A DNA stretch of 64,000 nucleotides from an uncultured Pelagibacteraceae bacterium (GCA_902612095.1 CACMBZ010000005.1:274-64273); one strand, 5' to 3'. Shown: positions 29,838 to 50,320, numbered from the stretch's first letter. A program made the numbers and translations. Notes: a model not told the origin generated them from the letters alone.

Positions 29838-31853
29838 ATGAAAAAAAGAGGTAGAAAAAAAAAGCAGGTCAAAGCTGAAGCTGAAAGCTTACAGGCACAA
29901 GCAAATGATCAAGATGGTCCTGTCCTAGATTTAGAAAAATCAATAATAAAAAAGCTTATTAAGCAAGGTAAAAAAGACGGTTATCTAACCCACGAATTAA
30001 TTAAAAAATCTTTTCCAGAGGATAAATTTACCTCTGAACAGATTGAACAATATACAACGAAGCTATCTCAAGTTGGATTTGATATTATTGACTCTGACGA
30101 CTCCGATAATGATGATGATAAAGATGACGAGTCACCTTCAGCAAAATCAGGTACAGAAAAAACAGATGATCCAGTTAAATTATACCTCAGAGAAATGGGA
30201 ACAGTTGATCTACTATCTCGTGAGGGCGAAATTGCGATAGCTAAACGAATTGAAGCTGGCCAAGAAGCAATGATTTCTGGACTATGTGAAAGTCCACTCA
30301 CACTGCAGGCGATACTTGATTGGAGGGATGATATAATTGCTGAAAAAATAACGTTAAGAGAAGTTATTGATCTTGAATCATTGTTTGAGGAGTCTCCAAA
30401 TAAAAAAGAACTGAGCAAAAAAATAAAAGAAGCAAAAAAAAGAAAAGAACAAGAAGAAAAAGAAGAAATTAGAAAAAGAAAAGAGGCTGAAAAAAAATCC
30501 TCTACTTATGGTGATGAAACAGAGCCAATGATTGAAACTTCCTCAGATCAAGTAATTGAGGAATACGAAGATGCTGATGATGAATTAAACGTTTCAATTG
30601 CAATAATGGAAGAGGAGTTAAAGCCTCAGATCCTTGAAACATTTAAAAAATTAAATAAAAGTTTTAAAAAGCTACAAAAGCTACAAAAGGATAAAATTGC
30701 ATTCCAGGAAAAGGGCAAAGAATTTCCATCAAGATCTGAAAAAAACTATCAGACTTCTAAGGCTGTTGTTGTTGAATTGATTAAAGGCTTACAAATAAAC
30801 ACAAATAAAATTGAAGAGTTAATTAATAAGTTATACGTAATTAATAAAGGAATTGTATCTTTGGAAGGTAAATTATTAAGACTTGCAGTTCAATATAAGA
30901 TCTCAAGAGACGAATTCTTGGATAAATACATCGGAAATGAGAATAATCCCTATTGGTTAAGAAAAATTACTAGACTTTCTGGATGGGAAAAATTTGTCAA
31001 AGAGGAAAAAAATAATATTAAAAATATAATGAACGAGGTTAGAGCCGCTGCAAGTAATATAGGTTTAACACTTAATGAATTTAAGAGAATTGTCAGTAAT
31101 GTACAAAAAGGGGAGAGAGAATCAAGTATTGCTAAAAAAGAAATGATTGAAGCCAACCTGCGATTAGTAATTTCTATCGCAAAAAAATATACTAACAGAG
31201 GTTTACAATTTTTAGACTTAATACAAGAGGGTAATATTGGTTTAATGAAGGCGGTAGATAAATTTGAATATAGACGAGGTTATAAGTTTTCAACTTATGC
31301 AACTTGGTGGATCCGGCAGGCAATTACTAGATCTATAGCAGATCAAGCTAGAACTATTCGTATACCAGTGCATATGATAGAAACAATCAATAAGATTGTA
31401 AGAACACAAAGGTTGCTTTTAAATGAAATAGGAAGGGAACCAACACCTGAAGAAATATCTACAAAATTAAATATGCCTCTTGAGAAAGTTAGAAAAGTTT
31501 TAAAGATTGCAAAAGAGCCTGTAAGCCTTGAAACTCCAGTTGGTGATGAAGAAGACAGTCACTTAGGTGACTTTATACAAGATGAGAATGCTGTTATCCC
31601 AATTGACGCAGCTATTCACTCTAACTTGAGACAAACTACTACCAAAATATTATCGTCTTTAACCCCTCGTGAAGAAAGGGTGCTAAGAATGAGATTTGGT
31701 ATTGGCATGAATTCAGACCATACACTTGAGGAAGTTGGACAACAATTTTCAGTTACGAGGGAGAGAATTAGGCAGATTGAGGCAAAAGCGCTCAGAAAAC
31801 TGAAGCACCCAACTCGAGCAAAGCTTTTAAAAAGTTTTCTAGATAAAAACTAG
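29838..31853 (+). CDS. rpoD: RNA polymerase primary sigma factor
   Basis: 671 aa. Acidic region 1, region 2 ([56 protein letters not shown]) and region 4 ([20 protein letters not shown]). Confidence 0.97.
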
Positions 31854-31894: not shown

Positions 31895-31971
31895 GGGCCC
31901 ATAGCTCAGTTGGTTAGAGCCCTCCGCTCATAACGGAGTTGTCCTAGGTTCGAGTCCTAGTGGGCCCACCA
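31895..31971 (+). tRNA. tRNA with CAU anticodon (elongator Met or lysidine-modified Ile2), CCA encoded
   Basis: Hand-folded 77-nt cloverleaf. Acceptor GGGCCCA/TGGGCCC, D-arm GCTC..GAGC, anticodon stem CTCCG/CGGAG with loop CTCATAA, T-arm CTAGG-TTCGAGT-CCTAG, then ACCA. Not an initiator: G1:C72 is paired and there is no GGG/CCC anticodon stem. Confidence 0.9.
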
Positions 31972-32086
31972 AATAATTCAATGACTTAGGTCATATATTC
32001 CCAACTTTTATCTTTCGAAACGAGATCAGATCGTCATCTGGTCGTCAATTATATTATAAATATCTCATTGCTATTAGGACTATAGA

Positions 32087-32413
32087 ATGTATTATTTAAA
32101 TGTGAAAAAAATAATTATTTATTTTGCAATGCTTCTATTTATTTACTCTTGCGCTAAACCCCATGTAGTAGAAACAAGACAATATGGTGATGCAGATAAA
32201 TCATGTTCTCAATTAGATGATGAAATTTACAGAACTGAACAAGTGATTAAAGATGCGAAAGAGGAAAGAGGGTTAACTGGAACAAATATAGCTTCTACGT
32301 TATTTTGGTTGCCTGGTTTAGCTGCAACATATATGAATGTAAATAAAGCTGTTGAAGCAGGTGAAGAAAGACTTGATGTTCTCTATAATTTAAAAGCAAA
32401 AAAGAACTGTTAG
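32087..32413 (+). CDS. small putative lipoprotein, unknown function
   Basis: 108 aa. Hydrophobic signal sequence ending in the lipobox-like FIYSC. The GTG at 32102 (VKKIII...) is an alternative start. It is the only ORF in cassette 1. Confidence 0.55.
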   Translation: MYYLNVKKIIIYFAMLLFIYSCAKPHVVETRQYGDADKSCSQLDDEIYRTEQVIKDAKEERGLTGTNIASTLFWLPGLAATYMNVNKAVEAGEERLDVLYNLKAKKNC

Positions 32414-32514
32414 AGAACTTTAAGTTTCGTCATTCAGTTGTCATTGACTCTAAAAACTTAATATTTACAGAACTAAATTTGTTACATAATCTAGCTTAAA
32501 TGTTAAAGCTCACA

Positions 32515-32560
32515 GCTCATAACGGAGTTGTCCTAGGTTCGAGTCCTAGTGGGCCCACCA
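32515..32560 (+). repeat. direct repeat R1: 46/46 copy of tRNA positions 31926-31971 (anticodon loop to CCA), att-like
   Basis: gctcataacggagttgtcctaggttcgagtcctagtgggcccacca is identical to the tRNA 3' portion. The upstream gttaaagctcaca resembles a mutated D-arm/anticodon stem that can no longer pair, so this is not a functional tRNA. Confidence 0.9.
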
Positions 32561-32578
32561 AGAAAATAGCCCAAAAAA

Positions 32579-34642
32579 ATGAATTCAAGATCATATAGAC
32601 CAGAAATTGATGGATTAAGAGCAATCGCAGTATTGATGGTTATTTTTTACCATGCTGAAATCTCAATCAATAACGAAGTTTTTCTTAAAAATGGATTTTT
32701 AGGTGTAGATATTTTTTTTGTTATATCTGGGTTTTTAATTACAAGGATTATTCTGAACGAATTGGTTATAACAAAACATTTTTCAATTATTAAATTTTAT
32801 TTAAGAAGAGTAAGAAGAATCATTCCCGTACTGCTTTTAGTTATAATAACAACGATCCCATTCTCTTGGATTTTATTTCTTCCTGACGCACTAACGGATT
32901 ATTCTAAGTCCTCCCTAGCTTCTTTGTTGTTTTCTTCAAATTTTTATTTTTACTTTACAGAACAAGAATATGGAGCACAATCAAGTCTGCTAAAACCACT
33001 ATTGCACACATGGTCACTAGCTGTAGAAGAGCAATTTTATATTTTCTTTCCTTTAATATTAATTTTTTTTACAAAGAATAACTATTTCAAAAATTTTATT
33101 TTTGCAGCATTATGCATTCTATTCTTTTCTAGTCTCTTTTATTCAGAATATAATTCCTCTAAGAATATTTCTTCAAACTTTTATCTAATATATTCAAGAG
33201 TATGGGAATTAATGTTTGGCTCTATTATAGCCTATGTAAGTTTAAAAGCTAATTATACAAATAATATTACATCAAAATATTTTAGTTCAATTGGAATAAT
33301 ACTTCTAATATCTTCAGTCTTTCTATTAGATAAGACTATTACACATCCTTCTTACTACACATTAATACCAGTGTTAGGTGTTGGAATGATAATATTATTC
33401 ACTAACAATAATTCCATTGATATTGTTAAATCCTTACTATCAAATAAATTTTTTGTAGGGATTGGATTATTATCTTATTCTATTTACTTATGGCATTACC
33501 CAATATTTGCCTTCGCTAGACTATATTTTAATGAACCAAGTAATTTAACTAAATTTTTCTTAATAATACTTACAATTGCAATATCAACTTTAAGTTATTT
33601 TTACGTTGAAAAACCAATGAGAGACTCAAATGTAATAAGAAATAAAATATTTTTTTTAATTATCTCATCTGGACTTATTATAATTATATCATTCAATTTG
33701 ATTACTATTTCAAACAACGGATTTGCATCAAGAATACCACCAATATTTAAAATTATGCAGTCTGATATTGACCATATAGAGCACGGACAAAGTATTTTGA
33801 ATAATTATGAGTCATTATCTTCAATAACAAACTCATCTCCTGAACTTAACGAAATATTAGTTTTAGGAGATTCAATGGCTGACTTAAAATTTAAAGACTT
33901 ATTTTCAGAAGAATTAAATAAAGTAGGATATAATGTTAAATTTAGTACTGAAAAATTGTGTATTTACATAAGGAATTTTGATCTAATAGACGGTCAGGGA
34001 TTAATTAGATCAAGCTGCAGCAAAGATTATCAAAATGAGAGAGATAAAATAATAGAGTCTTATTCAGAGCCAATTCTGATTCTTTTTGGTCGTTGGCCTT
34101 TATATTTAAATAAAACTGAATTTAATGATAAAGAGGGAAATATAGAATGGCCCCAGTATAATTGGGACTATGTTTATGATGAAAGTATTTCTATAGAGGA
34201 AGGGATAATTAATACAATAAGATACAATTTGGACAGAGGGGCAAGAATTATTTTTATTGGACCATATCCAGAATTCGCTGTCGATCCACTTATACATTTG
34301 TATAGAAATATTGAATTATTCCAAAAATTAGAAAAAAATGAAAGTTTTAGTCGTGATGAAATTAATAAAATATCAAAGAATGTTTTAACTACTTCTTATG
34401 ATGTTATTTTAAAAAGAATTAATTCAACAATAGAAATGATAGATATAATTGACCACCCTAATTTTTATGCCGTTTTACCTCATAAAATATTATGTGATAA
34501 TTTCGTTAAGTCACGCTGTATTGCTTATAATGAGAAAAATATTTTTTATAAAGACATGACTCACCCGTCACTTGCGGGTAGCAATATCATTTTAGATCTA
34601 GTTATTGATAAATTAAATGAAATACAAATTACGAATAAATAA
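32579..34642 (+). CDS. acyltransferase-3 family O-acyltransferase with C-terminal SGNH/OafA-like domain
   Basis: 687 aa. The N-terminus RPEIDGLRAIAVLMVIFYHA and about 10 TM helices are typical of OafA/OatA/YrhL acyltransferases. Soluble C-terminal domain of ~300 aa. Confidence 0.85.
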   Translation: MNSRSYRPEIDGLRAIAVLMVIFYHAEISINNEVFLKNGFLGVDIFFVISGFLITRIILNELVITKHFSIIKFYLRRVRRIIPVLLLVIITTIPFSWILFLPDALTDYSKSSLASLLFSSNFYFYFTEQEYGAQSSLLKPLLHTWSLAVEEQFYIFFPLILIFFTKNNYFKNFIFAALCILFFSSLFYSEYNSSKNISSNFYLIYSRVWELMFGSIIAYVSLKANYTNNITSKYFSSIGIILLISSVFLLDKTITHPSYYTLIPVLGVGMIILFTNNNSIDIVKSLLSNKFFVGIGLLSYSIYLWHYPIFAFARLYFNEPSNLTKFFLIILTIAISTLSYFYVEKPMRDSNVIRNKIFFLIISSGLIIIISFNLITISNNGFASRIPPIFKIMQSDIDHIEHGQSILNNYESLSSITNSSPELNEILVLGDSMADLKFKDLFSEELNKVGYNVKFSTEKLCIYIRNFDLIDGQGLIRSSCSKDYQNERDKIIESYSEPILILFGRWPLYLNKTEFNDKEGNIEWPQYNWDYVYDESISIEEGIINTIRYNLDRGARIIFIGPYPEFAVDPLIHLYRNIELFQKLEKNESFSRDEINKISKNVLTTSYDVILKRINSTIEMIDIIDHPNFYAVLPHKILCDNFVKSRCIAYNEKNIFYKDMTHPSLAGSNIILDLVIDKLNEIQITNK

Positions 34643-34667
34643 TTTGATAGTTATGTTAATCCTTAAT

Positions 34668-34713
34668 ATAACGGTAATTACGAAGTTGTTCTAAGTTCCT
34701 ACTGGGCCCACCA
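34668..34713 (+). repeat. direct repeat R2: degraded copy of the tRNA 3' portion
   Basis: attacgaagttgttctaagtt-cctactgggcccacca aligns by eye to the tRNA 3' part with ~5 substitutions and a 5-nt T-loop deletion. It is followed by agaaaatagcc, the same 11 nt that follow R1. Confidence 0.7.
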
Positions 34714-34791
34714 AGAAAATAGCCAAATATTTTCTCTACTACGGTATTACCTAAACTAAGTCATGATCTGGTCGTGAATAAAATTGAATTT

Positions 34792-35934
34792 TTAATTCAT
34801 TGCCAATATATTCAGAGCCTTAAGCTGTATATTTATTTCTGTAATTTGAGCTTTCAATAATTCGTTTTCTTGACGTATTGAGTCATTCTCTTCCTTTAAC
34901 TGAGCCTTTAATATTCTATTTTCTTGCATTACAGCATCAATCTTATTCTCCAACATATGATTTTGTTTTTCAGCTACTCTTGCTGGTTTAACACTTCCAA
35001 ACTTAAACGTTATACCTGCTTTGATGCTCATATCCCTTGCCTCACTGATATCAGGTTCCCCATTCATCAAAAATGACGATCCAATATTAAATGATGCTGT
35101 TTGAAAGATCTTTGGTAAGTTGTCTGTAAAAGTATAGTTTGAAAAATCAGATGCACAACCTGCTGACAATGCAGAACTGCTGTCATGAATTCCTGTTCCC
35201 AAACCACACGTATAGAAAGCATCGGGTGAAGAATTAGGTAGCGCTGCAAGAGCTGAACTCAATGCAACAGAGCCACTAATGTCACCACCAATAATATCCA
35301 TAATGTTGCGTCCACCGATTAAAAGATTCGTTCCACTTTTAATATTTAAATCAATTTGATTGCCCGCAGAGTTGGTTGCATACAATTGTTGAACCCCATT
35401 TACTTCTTGTGTGACTAATGAGTTCTCACCAATATGTGTTGCTCCATCTGTTGTTACTTTAATTACTGTATCACCATTTGCGTCTTGTATATCAAGTTCA
35501 TTTGATGTATTTGATATTTGAATGGCGGTTTCTCCTCCTTCTCCAATCTGAGTCTTATTTGCTTCACTATTTTCATAGATTAAGTTTTTACCTGCCCAAG
35601 GTGTTTGATATATAGCTTGAAAATCACTGTCAAATGTAGCTGTTTGAGACATCGTATCATTTACTACGTCATAAACCATAAATACATCTTGTGAATCTTT
35701 TAAATAATACTTTCCATTATATGAGTCCATGAATGACACTCCGGGCGTCCAATATCCAGAAGGGAATGCAAACTGCTGTTTAAGCGTTGTATCCCCTGTA
35801 GTTAAATTAATGCTGTAGATCTCATTTTTTTCAATTACCGCATTATACTTAACTCCATAAACTAGATCTTCACTACTTAGTACACTCTCAATCATAGTAA
35901 ATACAAAAAATATTGAAGCTATTATTTTTTTCAT
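34792..35934 (-). CDS. secreted YadA-like (trimeric autotransporter-type) protein with an extra C-terminal coiled coil
   Basis: 380 aa with a signal peptide (MKKIIASIFFVFTMIESVLS). SVALSSALAALPNSSP...GLGTG...SALSAG...SIKAGITFKFG resembles the YadA membrane-anchor pattern as I recall it. The last ~60 aa are heptad-like (ENKIDAVMQENRILKAQLKEEN...). Confidence 0.55.
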   Translation of the reverse strand: MKKIIASIFFVFTMIESVLSSEDLVYGVKYNAVIEKNEIYSINLTTGDTTLKQQFAFPSGYWTPGVSFMDSYNGKYYLKDSQDVFMVYDVVNDTMSQTATFDSDFQAIYQTPWAGKNLIYENSEANKTQIGEGGETAIQISNTSNELDIQDANGDTVIKVTTDGATHIGENSLVTQEVNGVQQLYATNSAGNQIDLNIKSGTNLLIGGRNIMDIIGGDISGSVALSSALAALPNSSPDAFYTCGLGTGIHDSSSALSAGCASDFSNYTFTDNLPKIFQTASFNIGSSFLMNGEPDISEARDMSIKAGITFKFGSVKPARVAEKQNHMLENKIDAVMQENRILKAQLKEENDSIRQENELLKAQITEINIQLKALNILAMN

Positions 35935-36091
35935 AATTGTCTCCTTTAGAATTAATTAATTGAGAGTAACAAATATTTTAAAAAAAAAAGATGTTTATTT
36001 TTTGTAGTGATAAGGTCGTACTTTCTGTCTAAAACTATATATTTACAGACTAAAATTTGTTACAAACCAAGCTTAAAGGTTAAAGCTCACT

Positions 36092-36137
36092 GCTCATAAC
36101 GAAGTTGTCCAAGGTTCGAGTCCTAGTGGGCTCACCA
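36092..36137 (+). repeat. direct repeat R3: 43/46 copy of the tRNA 3' portion
   Basis: gctcataacGAagttgtccAaggttcgagtcctagtgggcTcacca, three substitutions counted by eye. The ~65 nt upstream also resemble the sequence upstream of R1. Confidence 0.85.
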
Positions 36138-36194
36138 GAAAAAGCTAAATTTTAACACTTAAATTCTTTTTTACTTATTCTATAATTCAATAAT

Positions 36195-37043
36195 ATGTCA
36201 TTTAATGTTGTACCCTCTGGACAAGCTTGTGGTGCTGAAATAACTGGAATCGATTTAAAGAGAGATTTGGACAAAAGTAAAATATCTGAAATAAGAGATC
36301 TTTGGCTTGAACATCAAGTCTTAAATTTTCCAAACCAAGCATTGTCTGATGATGACCTAGAACGTTTCACTCAATATTTTGGATCTTTTGGAGATGACCC
36401 ATTTATCGCCTCAATACCAGGTAGAGAAAATATAATTGCTGTTAAAAGAACCGCAGATGAAAAGGTTCCAATTTTTGCAGACAATTGGCACACTGATTGG
36501 AGTTTTCAAAAAAATCCACCAGCAGGTACGTGTTTATTTGGAAAAATAATTCCAATAGAAGGCGGTGATACGTTGTTTGCGAACCAACATTTAGCACTAG
36601 AGCGCATGCCCTTAGAATTAAGAAAAAAGTTGGAGGGGAAAAAAGCAATCCACTCAGCCCTCGTGCCTTATTCTCCGGGGGGTGGTTACGGTGATAAGGA
36701 TAGAGAAATGGGAAGAAGCATGGATATAAGAGCTTCAGATGATGCTTTTGCTCAACAAATACATCCTATTATTAAGAATCATCCTGAAACAAATAAAGAG
36801 GGTATTTATGGCACAGTTGGTTACATCATTGGTATTGATGGTATGGATAATCAGGAAGCTATGAAATTACTCATGGAATTAAGTTCATGGCAGTGCAAAG
36901 ATGAATTTGTTTATCGCCATAAATGGAAAAAAGATATGTTAATTATGTGGGACAATAGAAGTGTTCTACACCGAGCAACTGGTGGTTATGAAGGGCAAGA
37001 GCGTCTTTTACATCGAACAACCATTGCAGCATATGGAATATAA
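36195..37043 (+). CDS. TauD/TfdA-family Fe(II)/2-oxoglutarate-dependent dioxygenase
   Basis: 282 aa. WHTDWSF (H-x-D facial-triad region), GGDTLFAN, MWDNRSVLHRA and a distal HRTT. Confidence 0.85.
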   Translation: MSFNVVPSGQACGAEITGIDLKRDLDKSKISEIRDLWLEHQVLNFPNQALSDDDLERFTQYFGSFGDDPFIASIPGRENIIAVKRTADEKVPIFADNWHTDWSFQKNPPAGTCLFGKIIPIEGGDTLFANQHLALERMPLELRKKLEGKKAIHSALVPYSPGGGYGDKDREMGRSMDIRASDDAFAQQIHPIIKNHPETNKEGIYGTVGYIIGIDGMDNQEAMKLLMELSSWQCKDEFVYRHKWKKDMLIMWDNRSVLHRATGGYEGQERLLHRTTIAAYGI

Positions 37044-37124: not shown

Positions 37125-38192
37125 CTAATTTTTTCTTGCTTCGATAACCATATTACTTGCATTTTTCTTAACTACTTTGCAGTTCTTAAATCCCGCTTCG
37201 TTTAAAACACTAATTAACTTTGCTGGACCTGCTTGCGCCCCAAGAGCTAATCCTACTTCTTGAGATTTTGAAGTTGGTACACAACCAATTGTTGAAAAAC
37301 AATAGTACATTTGACCAAATAAATTGAAATTATCTTCAGGGTTATCATTTGCTGTTGGTTCGATCAAAATTACTGAACCATCATCTTCTAGATGGTTAAA
37401 AGCATATTTGGCTGCCCCAACTGGATCACCCATGTCATGTAAACAATCAAAAAAAGCAATATAATCATGTTTACCCTCATAACTTTTGGCATCAGCAGTT
37501 GAATACTCAATACGGTTTTCTAAACCTGCTTTCTTTGCCAATTTCTTAGCTTCATTAATAGAAGGACCGTGAATATCGTACCCACAGACCTTAGCGTTAG
37601 GAAATGTCTCAGCTATTATCATTGTAGATAAACCATAACCACAACCAATATCAGCAAAGCTTGCACCAGAATTCATTCGTTTCTCAAGGCTTTCTATTTT
37701 TGGTAACCAGCTTTTTACTAAATTTTTTTCATAAGATGGTTTGAAGAATCTCGCAGTACCTTGAAAGCAAATTGGACATGAGTCTTTATAATCAACACCT
37801 TCACCTGTTTTAAAGGCCTCTTTCACTTTTTCTTCATTATGAATGGCACCCGTTAGCATATCGTATGCCCCCATCATTGATGCAGGACTATCATCCTTCG
37901 CAAAAACAGCAATTTGTTCAGGTGAGAGAGAAAATTTTTTTTTATTAGAATCATAATTTGCAAAACCCGCAGCTGACATCGCATACAGCCACTCCCTAAG
38001 ATATCTTTCATCAAGGTTAGATACTTTTGCCAATTCTTCTGAATTTACTTCACCCAACTCTGATAAATGTTTGAAAATTCCAAGTTGATCTCCAATTCTC
38101 ATTAATGGTATTATGGCTGAGGCGGAAACATCCTGCATAACCTTTAGCTGTAATTCTTTTAACGCTTCAAGATTTAATCCTTGATCACTCAT
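37125..38192 (-). CDS. class I SAM-dependent methyltransferase with N-terminal winged-helix/dimerisation-like domain
   Basis: 355 aa. ADIGCGYG motif I, a downstream acidic loop (GYDIH), and DYIAFFDCLHDMGDP. Confidence 0.75.
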   Translation of the reverse strand: MSDQGLNLEALKELQLKVMQDVSASAIIPLMRIGDQLGIFKHLSELGEVNSEELAKVSNLDERYLREWLYAMSAAGFANYDSNKKKFSLSPEQIAVFAKDDSPASMMGAYDMLTGAIHNEEKVKEAFKTGEGVDYKDSCPICFQGTARFFKPSYEKNLVKSWLPKIESLEKRMNSGASFADIGCGYGLSTMIIAETFPNAKVCGYDIHGPSINEAKKLAKKAGLENRIEYSTADAKSYEGKHDYIAFFDCLHDMGDPVGAAKYAFNHLEDDGSVILIEPTANDNPEDNFNLFGQMYYCFSTIGCVPTSKSQEVGLALGAQAGPAKLISVLNEAGFKNCKVVKKNASNMVIEARKN

Positions 38193-49860: not shown

Positions 49861-50217
49861 GCCAGATAATTGGATAACTGCTTGGCTTGATCAAGAGGAA
49901 AGTCCGGGCTCCACAAGGCAACAGTGCCGGGTAATACCCGGCGGAGGCAACTCTAGGGAAAGTGCCGCAGAAAATAAACCGCCCTAATTGAAATTTTAAG
50001 GGTAAGGGTGAAAAGGTGAGGTAAGAGCTCACCGCTTTTTTGGTAACAAAAAAGGCATGGTAAACCCCACTGGGAGCAAGATCAAATAGGGTTACATTGG
50101 CTTGTCTTGGCTGTAACCGGGTTGATCGCACGACTCAATTGGTAACAATTGGGCTAGATGAATAGTTATCGGTTTTATTTAAAAAAATTACAGAACCCGG
50201 CTTATAAATTATCTGGC
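49861..50217 (+). ncRNA. rnpB: RNase P RNA, bacterial type A
   Basis: P1 pairing gccagataatt...aattatctggc. Universally conserved GAGGAAAGTCCGGGCTCCA and ACAGAACCCGGCTTA (P4 strands). GGTAAGGGTGAAA and GGTAAACCCCAC modules. Confidence 0.93.
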
Positions 50218-50320
50218 AAAATTTATCATTTATTTTCAATAATTTATAAATATAGGCTAATGTATAAAATTAGTTAAATAATTGATTATAAAAGAAATAT
50301 CATAAATAGGTATAGACATT

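What the first reader, a model, noticed from the sequence alone, without database searches (positions are those of the whole stretch)
31895..36137. tRNA(CAU) followed by three direct repeats of its 3' 46 nt, delimiting three single-gene cassettes with no recombinase
The 46 nt from the anticodon loop to CCA (31926-31971) recur at 32515-32560 (46/46) and at 36092-36137 (43/46). A degraded copy lies at ~34677-34713, with ~5 substitutions and a 5-nt deletion. All copies are in the same orientation. This is the signature of site-specific integration into a tRNA 3' end, repeated or accreted three times. Yet no interval (about 0.6, 2.1 and 1.4 kb) contains an integrase, excisionase or any phage or plasmid gene. 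The layout resembles the tRNA-anchored, partial-tRNA-punctuated cargo islands described for tycheposons in Prochlorococcus (as I recall), here in a SAR11-like streamlined genome. Either the mobility modules were deleted, leaving cargo only, or the cassettes are mobilised in trans by an element encoded elsewhere. The second option would amount to a minimal gene-cassette system using a tRNA 3' end as its recombination site.
Basis: partly seen in the sequence, partly recalled or inferred. Interest (0 to 1): 0.75.

Follow-up and report, generated by a model that had tools for sequence, protein, structure and literature searches.

The report
Satellite-built tRNA cassette island in SAR11
A tRNA gene in a SAR11 (Pelagibacter) genome has collected three small gene cassettes left by integrating phage-satellite-like elements that later lost their own integrase, which is a known way for streamlined ocean bacteria to gain variable genes.

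Summary
One tRNA(CAU) gene lies at 31895-31971. Its last 46 nt recur at 32515-32560 (46/46), at 36092-36137 (43/46) and, degraded, at 34677-34713. No tyrosine recombinase was detected in the 64-kb window.

Related SAR11 genomes and metagenome contigs show the same rpoD-tRNA-TauD locus empty or holding 1-3 different cassettes. A circular ~6.9-kb metagenomic element (L144) carries the attP. It has three TCGTCAT repeats, the identical 46-nt core, an arm 99% identical to the start of window cassette 1, and then a lambda-type tyrosine integrase and a primase/helicase-like gene. Sister elements carry a small terminase subunit.

The island is therefore an accretion of integrase-less derivatives of satellite-like elements (like VEIMEs or tycheposons). 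Cassettes 1 and 3 keep both att arms. Each arm has a pair of 7-nt repeats exactly 11 nt apart. The repeat motif varies with the integrase N-terminus across six full-length integrase lineages, which marks the repeats as arm-type binding sites. These two cassettes could still be moved by an incoming cognate integrase, but this is not shown. Cassette 2 has lost its arms.

Partial-tRNA-delimited cassettes without mobile-element genes are already published for SAR11, Prochlorococcus and Methylopumilus. This is a new member of a known kind.

The parts
29838..31853 (+). rpoD (sigma-70), the conserved left flank of the island
   Evidence: 671-aa ORF. It is 79-95% identical in nucleotides and collinear in SAR11 SAG loci L007, L030, L039, L078, L104, L105 and L120.
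31895..31971 (+). Intact tRNA(CAU). This is the attL core and the live integration target. The identity block with all repeats starts at the anticodon loop (31926-31971).
   Evidence: ARAGORN and Rfam, 69 bits. All repeat copies and both tRNA-Met attP sequences become identical from G/CTCATAA onward.
31972..32055 (+). Left (P') arm of cassette 1, with two arm-type repeats: ATCGTCAT at 32030-32037 and GTCGTCAA at 32041-32048, 11 nt apart
   Evidence: Window 31925-32047 is 99.2% identical over 123 nt to L144 4686-4808. In L144 that stretch lies immediately upstream of the integrase gene.
32087..32413 (+). Cassette 1 cargo: a 108-aa lipoprotein-like protein
   Evidence: ORF. No Pfam or NCBIfam hit. 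Matches phrog_13472, E 5.5e-7. A homologue lies in the island of L130. The exact protein occurs on 15 metagenome contigs.
32425..32514 (+). Right (P) arm of cassette 1, 'type A'. It has repeats TCGTCAT (32427-32433) and TTGTCAT (32438-32444), then a conserved ~66-nt segment.
   Evidence: The type A arm is shared by 17 copies in 14 loci, with mean pairwise identity 0.78.
32515..32560 (+). R1: attR core of cassette 1, 46/46 identical to the tRNA 3' part
32561..34676 (+). Cassette 2: an O-antigen-acetylase-type acyltransferase (ORF 32579-34642). Its arms are eroded. Only about 12 nt (AGAAAATAGCCC) of a 'type C' left arm remain, and there is no right arm.
   Evidence: Pfam Acyl_transf_3 plus SGNH. 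phrog_6705, E 6e-138. Left-end comparison with L125, L128 and the sequence after window R2. No 11-nt repeat pairs.
34677..34713 (+). R2: degraded core copy with 5 substitutions and a 5-nt deletion
34714..34791 (+). Left arm of cassette 3 ('type C'), with repeats GTCATGA (34760-34766) and GTCGTGA (34771-34777)
   Evidence: Its start is homologous to the left arms in L125 and L128.
34792..35934 (-). Cassette 3 cargo: a 380-aa protein with an N-terminal signal-like segment and no family match
   Evidence: Diverged homologues lie in the islands of L078, L124 and L132.
36000..36091 (+). Right arm of cassette 3 (type A), with degenerate repeats GTAGTGA (36004-36010) and GTCGTAC (36015-36021)
   Evidence: (family D1/D6).
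36092..36137 (+). R3: the distal attR core (43/46), marking the original tRNA 3' end position
   Evidence: The sequence after it matches the sequence that follows the tRNA in the empty site of L104.
36138..37043 (+). Conserved right flank: promoter region and a TauD-family dioxygenase gene (36195-37043)
   Evidence: Pfam TauD, E 2.5e-55. It is 88% identical and contiguous with the tRNA in L104.

Best explanation
The region is an additive genomic island at the tRNA(CAU) gene downstream of rpoD in a SAR11 (Pelagibacteraceae) genome.

The donors are small circular integrative elements of about 6.5-7 kb. Each carries a lambda-type tyrosine integrase and a primase/helicase-like gene, and some carry a small terminase subunit, so they look like phage satellites. 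Their attP is laid out as follows: 2-3 arm-type repeats, a P arm, the 46-nt 3' part of the tRNA, a P' arm of about 60 nt, 2 arm-type repeats, and then the integrase gene.

Recombination crosses over in the 7-nt anticodon loop. The element's own copy of the tRNA 3' part rebuilds the gene, and the displaced host copy becomes a direct repeat at the far end. Each new integration uses the rebuilt tRNA and pushes older insertions away from it. This gives the order cassette 1 (newest, R1 46/46), then cassette 2, then cassette 3.

Deletions then removed the integrase and replication genes. What remains is single cargo genes that may alter the cell surface (an O-antigen-acetylase-type acyltransferase, a lipoprotein-like protein, a secreted-looking protein) between att remnants.

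Cassettes 1 and 3 keep both arms, each with a pair of 7-nt repeats 11 nt apart. They are therefore equivalent to cis-mobilizable elements (CIMEs): they cannot move themselves, but an incoming element with a matching integrase could excise them or carry them along. Cassette 2 has lost its arms and is fixed.

Shown here: the repeats, the empty site, the variable cassette content, the attP and integrase on a circular element, the 11-nt repeat pairs, and the co-variation of the repeat motif with the integrase N-terminus.

Inferred: the crossover point, the order of events, the deletions, the satellite lifestyle of the donors, and any present-day mobility.
For: 1. Empty site: in L104 (SAG AG-422-N09) the rpoD alignment (95%) and the TauD alignment (88%) meet at the tRNA with nothing between them.

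2. The same locus holds different cassette sets. L078 has one, L120 two, L125 and L129 three. All are separated by the same core.

3. L144 is circular, with a 99-nt terminal direct repeat. It has no full tRNA. It carries the core at 100% identity and then 122 nt that are 99% identical to window 31926-32047, running into a 336-aa Phage_integrase gene. It also has an AAA_25 primase/helicase-like gene.

4. The L144 P arm is 87% identical over 212 nt to the last repeat of L129.

5. A second attP for this tRNA lies in L156, with GTGCGGG repeats on both sides.

6. Sister elements L158-L161 are circularly permuted ~6.5-kb contigs with Prim-Pol/AAA_25 and Terminase_2.

7. 23 of 36 cassette arms have a 7-mer pair at a spacing of exactly 11 nt. 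Spacings of 7-20 nt otherwise give 0-2 arms. Shuffled arms give a mean of 0.68 and a maximum of 4.

8. Left- and right-arm motifs belong to the same class in 8 of 9 cassettes with pairs on both sides.

9. Six full-length integrase lineages with different first ~25 residues each have their own repeat motif. Two integrases with the same N-terminus (P0222, P0227) share TCGTCAT although they target different tRNAs. The truncated integrases (MATIRKLRGKWQ...) pair with a seventh motif, GATCACA.

10. The AlphaFold2 model of P0222 (pLDDT 85.8) has three strands plus a helix at residues 1-44. It aligns over its full length to lambda Int (1z1g_A, 344 columns).

11. Truncated integrase N-termini sit just after the left arm in sister islands L129, L134 and L138.

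12. Neighbour polymorphism: L171 has cassette 1 at 99.6% identity, followed by a different segment from the one in the window.
Against: No excised circle or junction read of any integrase-less cassette was seen.

No integrase-bearing element with the 'type A' right arm that flanks cassettes 1 and 3 was found. L144 has a different P arm, so cassette 1 is not a simple internal deletion of an L144-type element and must be composite.

All other contigs carrying cassette 1 are collinear with the window at 99.7-100%, so the arrangement is stable within this genotype.

R2 is more decayed than the supposedly older R3.

The satellite lifestyle of the donors rests on gene content only. L144 itself shows no terminase or capsid gene. 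None of these elements is present in IMG/VR or in cultured phage genomes.

The motif match between left and right arms is only weak statistical evidence, because few motif classes are involved.
Confidence: 0.85

Rival explanations
1. Active minimal cassette system. The integrase-less cassettes with complete arms are maintained as mobile units. Satellite-encoded (or other) integrases supplied in trans routinely excise, circularise and re-integrate them. The conserved type A arm is then their own recombination site rather than a relic.
For: Both arms of cassettes 1 and 3 keep paired repeats at 11-nt spacing. The type A arm is shared by 17 cassettes with unrelated cargo. It is 92-94% identical between genomes whose rpoD is only about 80% identical. 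So far it occurs only with integrase-less cassettes. Cassette 1 is found next to two different neighbours.
Against: No circular form, no empty-after-excision junction and no copy of a cassette at a second tRNA was seen. Integrase remnants show that decay takes place. Homologous recombination between the 46-nt cores and the ~70-120-nt arms could shuffle cassettes equally well. Only two integrase-bearing tRNA-Met attP sequences were sampled, so the absence of a type A attP with an integrase is weak evidence.
Confidence: 0.3
2. Remnants of full temperate pelagiphages (prophages) rather than of small satellite-like elements.
For: Pelagiphages of the HTVC019P type integrate into SAR11 tRNA genes with 11-46-bp cores (10.1101/410191). 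O-antigen acetylases are classical prophage morons.
Against: The known pelagiphage sites are tRNA-Cys, -Leu and -Arg, not CAU. Neither the attP nor a close integrase relative occurs in 50,697 phage records, where the best integrase match is 34% identity in Ralstonia phages. The only elements found with this attP are circles of 6.5-7 kb with no capsid genes detected.
Confidence: 0.08
3. Local tandem duplication of the tRNA gene followed by decay of the 5' halves, with unrelated genes inserted between the copies.
For: The type A arm shows a faint resemblance to the tRNA D-arm.
Against: That resemblance is not significant (176/2000 and 76/2000 shuffles reach the score for the tRNA 5' half; 829/2000 and 962/2000 with the upstream region included). 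The sequence following the tRNA is 99% identical to the attP arm of an extrachromosomal integrase-bearing circle. The identity block starts at or within one base of the anticodon loop in all copies, as expected for integrase crossover.
Confidence: 0.02

Closest known systems
Tycheposon-built genomic islands of Prochlorococcus (Hackl et al., bioRxiv 10.1101/2020.12.28.424599)
   Same: Both are tRNA-anchored islands in a streamlined marine bacterium. [quoted passage not shown] Newer elements push older ones further in. Degenerated remnants and extra partial tRNAs are present. The donor elements combine a tyrosine recombinase with a primase/helicase module, and some have terS.
   Different: The host is SAR11. 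The window island holds no recombinase or replication gene at all. Whether the P0222-family integrases fall in the tycheposon integrase clade was not tested. The donors seen here are smaller (6.5-7 kb) than the 10-20 kb quoted for tycheposons and PICIs.
VEIMEs, marine virion-encapsidated integrative mobile elements / phage satellites (Eppley et al. 2022, PMC9618062)
   Same: The paper reports satellites integrated in Pelagibacter genomes, with tyrosine integrases, primase/helicases and in some cases small terminase subunits. This matches the gene content of L144, L156 and L158-L161.
   Different: Encapsidation of the elements found here is unknown. No sequence comparison with the published VEIME set was possible. 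The window holds only their integrase-less derivatives.
CIMEs (cis-mobilizable elements) and tandem accretion, described for Streptococcus ICESt1-type islands (review PMC5704250)
   Same: [quoted passage not shown] It accretes in tandem with incoming elements at the 3' end of a tRNA gene. Cassettes 1 and 3 fit this description.
   Different: The parents are satellite-like elements, not ICEs or IMEs. Cassettes are single genes of 0.5-1.4 kb. Cis-mobilisation has not been demonstrated here.
Additive flexible genomic islands marked by partial tRNA repeats: SAR11 GI-20/30/50/58 (PMC11796062) and Methylopumilus fGI-2 with 20-bp tRNA-Lys repeats (PMC10872708)
   Same: Partial repeats of the flanking tRNA lie inside an island and delimit inserted gene cassettes. 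No canonical mobile-element genes are present.
   Different: Those passages give no attP, donor element or arm structure. Whether one of the four SAR11 islands is this rpoD-tRNA(CAU) locus could not be checked, because the supplement is not held.
Integron gene cassette arrays
   Same: Both are arrays of mostly single-gene, promoter-poor cassettes separated by a repeated recombination site, with the newest cassette nearest the insertion point.
   Different: The repeated site is a tRNA 3' part flanked by lambda-type arms, not an attC hairpin. There is no adjacent intI/attI/Pc platform. The recombinase is a heterobivalent lambda-Int-like enzyme carried by the incoming element.

Membership tests
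Site-specific integration island at a tRNA gene (attL/attR) | An intact tRNA at one end, with same-orientation direct repeats of its 3' part | tested here: met
   46/46, 43/46 and one degraded copy, with 0 matches expected by chance.
Site-specific integration island at a tRNA gene (attL/attR) | An unoccupied site in a related genome | tested here: met
   In L104 (AG-422-N09) the tRNA is followed directly by the TauD flank.
Site-specific integration island at a tRNA gene (attL/attR) | A matching attP next to an integrase on a separate, circular element | tested here: met
   L144 has the core at 100% identity, 122 nt of arm at 99%, a PF00589 integrase and a 99-nt terminal repeat. L156 provides a second attP.
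Lambda-type (heterobivalent) tyrosine integrase system with arm-type sites (applies to the donor elements) | An N-terminal arm-binding domain in addition to the core-binding and catalytic domains | tested here: met
   The AF2 model has three strands plus a helix at residues 1-44. It aligns over its full length to lambda Int 1z1g_A (344 columns, E 2e-11).
Lambda-type (heterobivalent) tyrosine integrase system with arm-type sites (applies to the donor elements) | Repeated arm-type sites on both sides of the core, specific to the integrase | tested here: met
   The 11-nt spacing statistic. Motif and N-terminus co-vary in six full-length integrase lineages, plus a seventh motif paired with the truncated integrases. 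Binding itself was not tested.
Tycheposon | The element encodes a site-specific tyrosine (or large serine) recombinase | tested here: not met
   None is present in the window island or anywhere else in the 64 kb. The donors L144 and L156 do encode one.
Tycheposon | A replication module (primase, helicase or polymerase) | tested here: not met
   Absent from the window cassettes. Present in the donor elements as AAA_25, Prim-Pol or DUF5906.
Tycheposon | The integrase belongs to the monophyletic tycheposon integrase clade | not testable with these tools
Tycheposon | Integration at an island-associated tRNA, leaving partial tRNA repeats | tested here: met
Phage satellite (PICI-like / VEIME) | A packaging or interference gene (terS or a capsid gene) together with integrase and replication genes | tested here: inconclusive
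   Terminase_2 is present in L158-L161. Nothing of the kind was detected in L144. None is present in the window.
Phage satellite (PICI-like / VEIME) | Helper-phage-dependent induction and encapsidation | not testable with these tools
   This needs experiments or virion-fraction sequencing.
CIME (cis-mobilizable element) | [quoted passage not shown] | tested here: met
CIME (cis-mobilizable element) | Retains attL and attR | tested here: met
   Cassettes 1 and 3 have cores plus both arms with repeat pairs. Cassette 2 does not meet this feature.
CIME (cis-mobilizable element) | Excised or transferred together with an accreted functional element | not testable with these tools
   No junction or circle data could be obtained.
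Integron | An intI gene with attI and Pc next to the array, and attC sites between cassettes | tested here: not met
   The window has no tyrosine recombinase. The repeat unit is the tRNA 3' part with lambda-type arms.

The most novel reading that the evidence does not exclude
The integrase-less cassettes are not just debris. They form a trans- or cis-mobilised gene-cassette pool in SAR11. Each cassette keeps a complete roughly 240-bp att structure, with matched arm-type repeat pairs and a cassette-specific 'type A' arm. Any incoming satellite whose integrase N-domain reads its repeat motif can move it. In sister islands, a widespread truncated integrase may act as a stand-alone arm-site binding protein that controls this traffic. 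It consists of the arm-binding domain plus one helix. It forms 71 clusters, is always cut at the same point, is flanked on both sides by GATCACA pairs, and has dN/dS of 0.08-0.34.
Probability: 0.25. Interest if true: 0.7.

Novelty: new member of a known kind. Interest (0 to 1): 0.4.

Why it matters
SAR11 is the most abundant bacterial group in the ocean, and canonical mobile elements are reported as almost absent from its genomic islands (PMC11796062). How it acquires its large flexible gene pool is still debated. This locus links a SAR11 tRNA-repeat cassette island to a concrete donor. The donor is a family of ~7-kb circular, satellite-like elements with a lambda-type integrase, a defined attP and arm-site motifs that can be read from sequence. 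That makes the proposed route testable: a satellite integrates, deposits a candidate surface-modifying gene, then loses its integrase. It also gives sequence signatures for finding such cassettes and their cognate integrases in other genomes (the core, the arms and the 11-nt repeat pairs). The general principle is already published for SAR11, Prochlorococcus and Methylophilaceae, so the gain is mechanistic detail rather than a new concept.

Tried and rejected
1. IMG/VR scans. The 46-nt core, the right-arm/core junction and the core/left-arm junction gave no match. A 25-nt T-arm pattern gave four contigs that carry unrelated tRNAs and no relevant integrase.

2. The single genome-contig scan used that same 25-nt pattern, which was too generic. 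It still yielded nine useful SAR11 SAG loci.

3. L033 (a core with no rpoD nearby) and L004 were examined and were uninformative.

4. The idea that the type A right arm is a decayed copy of the tRNA 5' half plus its promoter was rejected. The alignment scores are not significant: 176/2000 and 76/2000 shuffles reach them for the 5' half, and 829/2000 and 962/2000 with the upstream region included.

5. The promoter and terminator scan of the island found no more sites than in shuffles.

6. Cultured phage genomes have no attP match, and their integrases are at most 34% identical. IMG/VR searched with the integrase or with its family profile gave only relatives at 35% identity or less.

7. A PDB sequence search matched only the catalytic domain. 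The N-domain assignment therefore rests on the structure model and the fold search.

8. PADLOC gave no defence-system match for the three cargo proteins.

9. I looked for a full-length integrase with the N-terminus of the truncated family. None was found among word-sharing candidates. HMMER found full-length relatives only with different first ~25 residues.

10. The supplement of PMC11796062, needed to see whether this locus is one of its four tRNA-repeat islands, is not held.
Full report
**Observation**

The window contains a single tRNA gene, at 31895-31971 on the + strand, with anticodon CAT (ARAGORN; Rfam tRNA model at 69 bits). Its last 46 nt run from the base before the anticodon loop to CCA. 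They recur in the same orientation at 32515-32560 (46/46) and at 36092-36137 (43/46). None of 100 dinucleotide-preserving shuffles gave a match. A degraded copy lies at 34677-34713 with five substitutions and a 5-nt deletion. A low-stringency search found no further copy.

The three intervals are 543, 2116 and 1378 nt, and each holds one long ORF:
- a 108-aa lipoprotein-like protein;
- a 687-aa acyltransferase with AT3 and SGNH domains (Pfam), which is a full-length match to the PHROG 'O-antigen acetylase' family (E 6e-138);
- a 380-aa protein with no family match.

No recombinase was detected. tblastn with five integrases of the relevant family, and a profile of 30 tyrosine integrases searched against every ORF of at least 60 aa, found nothing in the whole 64 kb.

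**Context and population variation**

The island sits between rpoD (29838-31853) and a TauD-family dioxygenase gene (36195-37043). The flanks are 93-95% identical to single-cell genomes named Pelagibacteraceae, so the host is SAR11.

- In SAG AG-422-N09 (L104), the rpoD alignment and the TauD alignment meet at the tRNA. This is an unoccupied site. The sequence after its tRNA matches the sequence after R3 in the window.
- Other SAGs and ten metagenome contigs carry one (L078, L138), two (L120, L130) or three (L125, L129) cassettes at the same place. The cargo is mostly unrelated, and the cassettes are always separated by the same core.
- The exact cassette 1 protein occurs on 15 contigs from several metagenomes. 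Nine of the ten contigs retrieved are collinear with the window at 99.7-100%. In L171, cassette 1 (99.6%) is followed by a different segment, the one seen in L132.

The boundaries of the island and of its cassettes are therefore polymorphic in nature.

**Anatomy of the cassettes**

Aligning all copies with their flanks shows that the repeat is more than the 46-nt core.

- Many cassettes begin with a conserved left arm of about 60 nt. It is followed by two copies of a 7-nt motif spaced exactly 11 nt apart.
- They end with another such pair, followed by a conserved ~66-nt 'type A' right arm that abuts the core.
- The type A arm occurs in 17 copies from 14 loci, with mean pairwise identity 0.78. 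It is 92-94% identical between genomes whose rpoD is only about 80% identical.
- The 11-nt periodicity is not chance. 23 of 36 arms have a 7-mer pair (at most 1 mismatch) at spacing 11. Every other spacing from 7 to 20 gives 0-2 arms, and shuffled arms give a mean of 0.68 and a maximum of 4.
- The motif differs between cassettes: TCGTCAT, GTCGTGA, TGCAGT, GTGCGGG or GATCACA. It is of the same class in the left and right arm in 8 of the 9 cassettes that have detectable pairs on both sides.

In the window:
- Cassette 1 has ATCGTCAT/GTCGTCAA (32030, 32041) on the left and TCGTCAT/TTGTCAT (32427, 32438) on the right.
- Cassette 3 has GTCATGA/GTCGTGA (34760, 34771) on the left and GTAGTGA/GTCGTAC (36004, 36015) on the right.
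- Cassette 2 keeps only about 12 nt of a left arm and has no right arm.

**The donor elements**

In sister islands, an ORF beginning MATIRKLRGKW follows the left arm (L129, L134, L138). Database searches showed that it belongs to a family of short proteins of 122 aa or fewer. An exhaustive HMMER search then found full-length relatives of about 335 aa, and a further search found 57 tyrosine integrases carrying PF00589.

The contig encoding one of them, P0222, is decisive. L144 is 6998 nt long with a 99-nt terminal direct repeat, so it is circular. It has no complete tRNA. In order, it contains:
1. three ATCGTCAT repeats 11 nt apart;
2. a ~105-nt P arm;
3. the 46-nt core at 100% identity;
4. 122 nt that are 99% identical to window 31926-32047, including both TCGTCA repeats;
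5. the integrase start codon.

Its other recognisable gene is a 628-aa AAA_25 primase/helicase-like protein. The L144 P arm is 87% identical over 212 nt to the most distal repeat of L129.

A second attP for this tRNA occurs in L156. It has GTGCGGG pairs on both sides, an integrase and an AAA_25 gene. Related elements target tRNA-Lys (L143, L145, L154/155, L158-163) or another tRNA whose identity was not determined (L149-153). L158-L161 are circularly permuted ~6.5-kb contigs that also encode Prim-Pol/AAA_25 and a small terminase subunit. This gene content matches that described for marine phage satellites found integrated in Pelagibacter (VEIMEs, PMC9618062) and for PICI-like tycheposons (10.1101/2020.12.28.424599).

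**The repeats are arm-type integrase sites**

Three results support this.
- The first ~25 residues are the most variable part of the integrase family: mean pairwise identity is 0.50, against 0.60-0.76 elsewhere.
- Each N-terminal variant goes with its own repeat motif. P0222 and P0227 have the same N-terminus and the same TCGTCAT repeats, yet they carry different tRNA cores (Met and Lys). P0226 goes with GTGCGGG, P0235 with GGTCGCA, P0242 with CGTCACA, P0072 with GGCACAC and P0246 with TTGACAC. The truncated family goes with GATCACA.
- An AlphaFold2 model of P0222 (pLDDT 85.8) shows three beta strands and a helix in residues 1-44. The whole model aligns to full-length lambda integrase (1z1g_A, 344 columns, E 2e-11).

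DNA binding itself was not tested.

**Mechanism**

The best-supported account has five steps.
1. Satellite-like circles integrate by recombination between their attP and the tRNA. The identity block begins at or within one base of the anticodon loop in all copies and in both attP sequences. This fits a crossover in the 7-nt loop flanked by the symmetric anticodon stem, which is established knowledge for this class of tRNA sites; the crossover point itself is inferred.
2. The element's copy of the tRNA 3' part rebuilds the gene, and the host copy is displaced to the far end.
3. Further integrations at the rebuilt tRNA push earlier insertions outward. This would make cassette 1 the newest, consistent with R1 at 46/46 and a left arm 99% identical to a free element.
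4. Deletions remove the integrase and replication genes and leave the cargo.
5. Cassettes that keep both arms are equivalent to cis-mobilizable elements as defined for streptococcal islands (PMC5704250).

I put the origin by integration and accretion at about 0.85. I put continuing mobilisation of cassettes 1 and 3 by incoming cognate integrases at about 0.3, because no circle or excision junction was seen.

**Points that do not fit neatly**

- L144 has a different P arm from the type A arm of cassette 1, so cassette 1 must be composite. Its homology to L144 stops exactly after the second arm site.
- R2 is more decayed than R3.
- No integrase-bearing element with a type A arm was found, although only two tRNA-Met attP sequences were sampled.

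**Rivals**

- Local tandem duplication of the tRNA is excluded by the extrachromosomal attP. The faint similarity of the type A arm to the tRNA 5' half is also not significant.
- Full prophage remnants are unlikely. Known pelagiphage sites are tRNA-Cys, -Leu and -Arg. No phage record carries this attP or a close integrase.
- An integron-like platform is excluded by the absence of any recombinase in the window and by the nature of the repeat.

**Comparison with what is known, and novelty**

Several related findings are already published.
- Tandem elements separated by partial tRNAs, and degenerated remnants with extra partial tRNAs, are described for Prochlorococcus tycheposon islands.
- An additive island marked by recurring 20-bp tRNA-Lys repeats is described in Methylopumilus.
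- For SAR11 itself, a 2025 study reports partial tRNA repeats identifying inserted gene cassettes in four genomic islands that lack canonical mobile elements (PMC11796062).
- A 2026 preprint proposes that phages integrate at SAR11 tRNAs, deposit surface-modification cargo and then degrade.

The finding is therefore a new member of a known kind. What this analysis adds is the donor family, its attP, and the arm-site code that links cassettes to integrase variants.

The window island fails the tycheposon definition on two defining features: it has no recombinase and no replication module. It should be described as derived from tycheposon- or VEIME-like elements rather than as a tycheposon.

**Side observation with the most novelty**

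The truncated integrase family forms 71 clusters at 90% identity. It is always cut near ...RLKDECN, it is flanked on both sides by GATCACA pairs, and it occurs at two different tRNAs with different cargo. No full-length protein sharing its first 25 residues was found. Pairwise dN/dS is 0.08-0.34, with dS up to 1.7. It may be a functional stand-alone arm-binding protein, or the product of recurrent deletions that end at arm sites. It is not present in the window.

Noticed in passing
L134 1202-1441; L138 316-585; L142 8001-8252; L129 1353-1490 (not in the window): A widespread family of truncated integrase N-termini, consisting of the arm-binding domain plus one helix (45-122 aa, 71 clusters). 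All are cut at the same point and flanked on both sides by GATCACA pairs 11 nt apart. They occur at both tRNA-Met and tRNA-Lys with different cargo. dN/dS is 0.08-0.34. This may be a functional stand-alone arm-site binding protein.
   Followed up: partly
window 37125-38192 (-): The Rv2258c-like methyltransferase gene between TauD and the OYE-type flavin oxidoreductase is absent from metagenome contig L125, where TauD is joined directly to the oxidoreductase. It is present in L132. This is a second presence/absence polymorphism just outside the island, and no tRNA-core repeat lies there.
   Followed up: partly
window 32048 / L144 4808: Homology between window cassette 1 and the integrase-bearing circle L144 ends exactly after the second arm-type repeat. 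The truncated integrases in sister islands likewise end at a pair of arm repeats. Deletion end points seem to coincide with arm-site pairs, and this is unexplained.
   Followed up: no
window 31895-31971: The CAT-anticodon tRNA has a paired G1-C72 end, so by my own reading it is not an initiator. It also has C4-G69 and C5-G68, which from my own knowledge recalls lysidine-modified tRNA-Ile2. Whether it is elongator Met or Ile2 was not resolved. A 2026 preprint notes that tRNAscan-SE labels one SAR11 CAT tRNA 'Ile2'.
   Followed up: no
L142 7876-10607; L154 and L155: The same element family uses tRNA-Lys(TTT), next to the suf operon, as a second integration hot spot in SAR11. L154/L155 carry a full integrase there. 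L142 has a truncated integrase plus a 654-aa DUF4379 cargo gene flanked by a tRNA-Lys 3' repeat.
   Followed up: partly
window 34792-35934 (-) versus L078, L124, L132: Homologues of the cassette 3 protein in sister islands are only about 64-80% identical in nucleotides, although the flanking rpoD is 95% identical in L078. The cargo is either old or fast-evolving.
   Followed up: no
L129 1538-2539: One sister-island cassette carries a 333-aa protein with an HNH-like C-terminus and weak PADLOC matches (SduA DUF4263 at E 9e-4; type IV methyl-directed restriction enzyme at E 6e-3). Some cassettes at this locus may therefore carry defence genes.
   Followed up: no
window 49862-50220 (+): Bacterial class A RNase P RNA (Rfam, 322 bits). 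This is an ordinary housekeeping gene.
   Followed up: no
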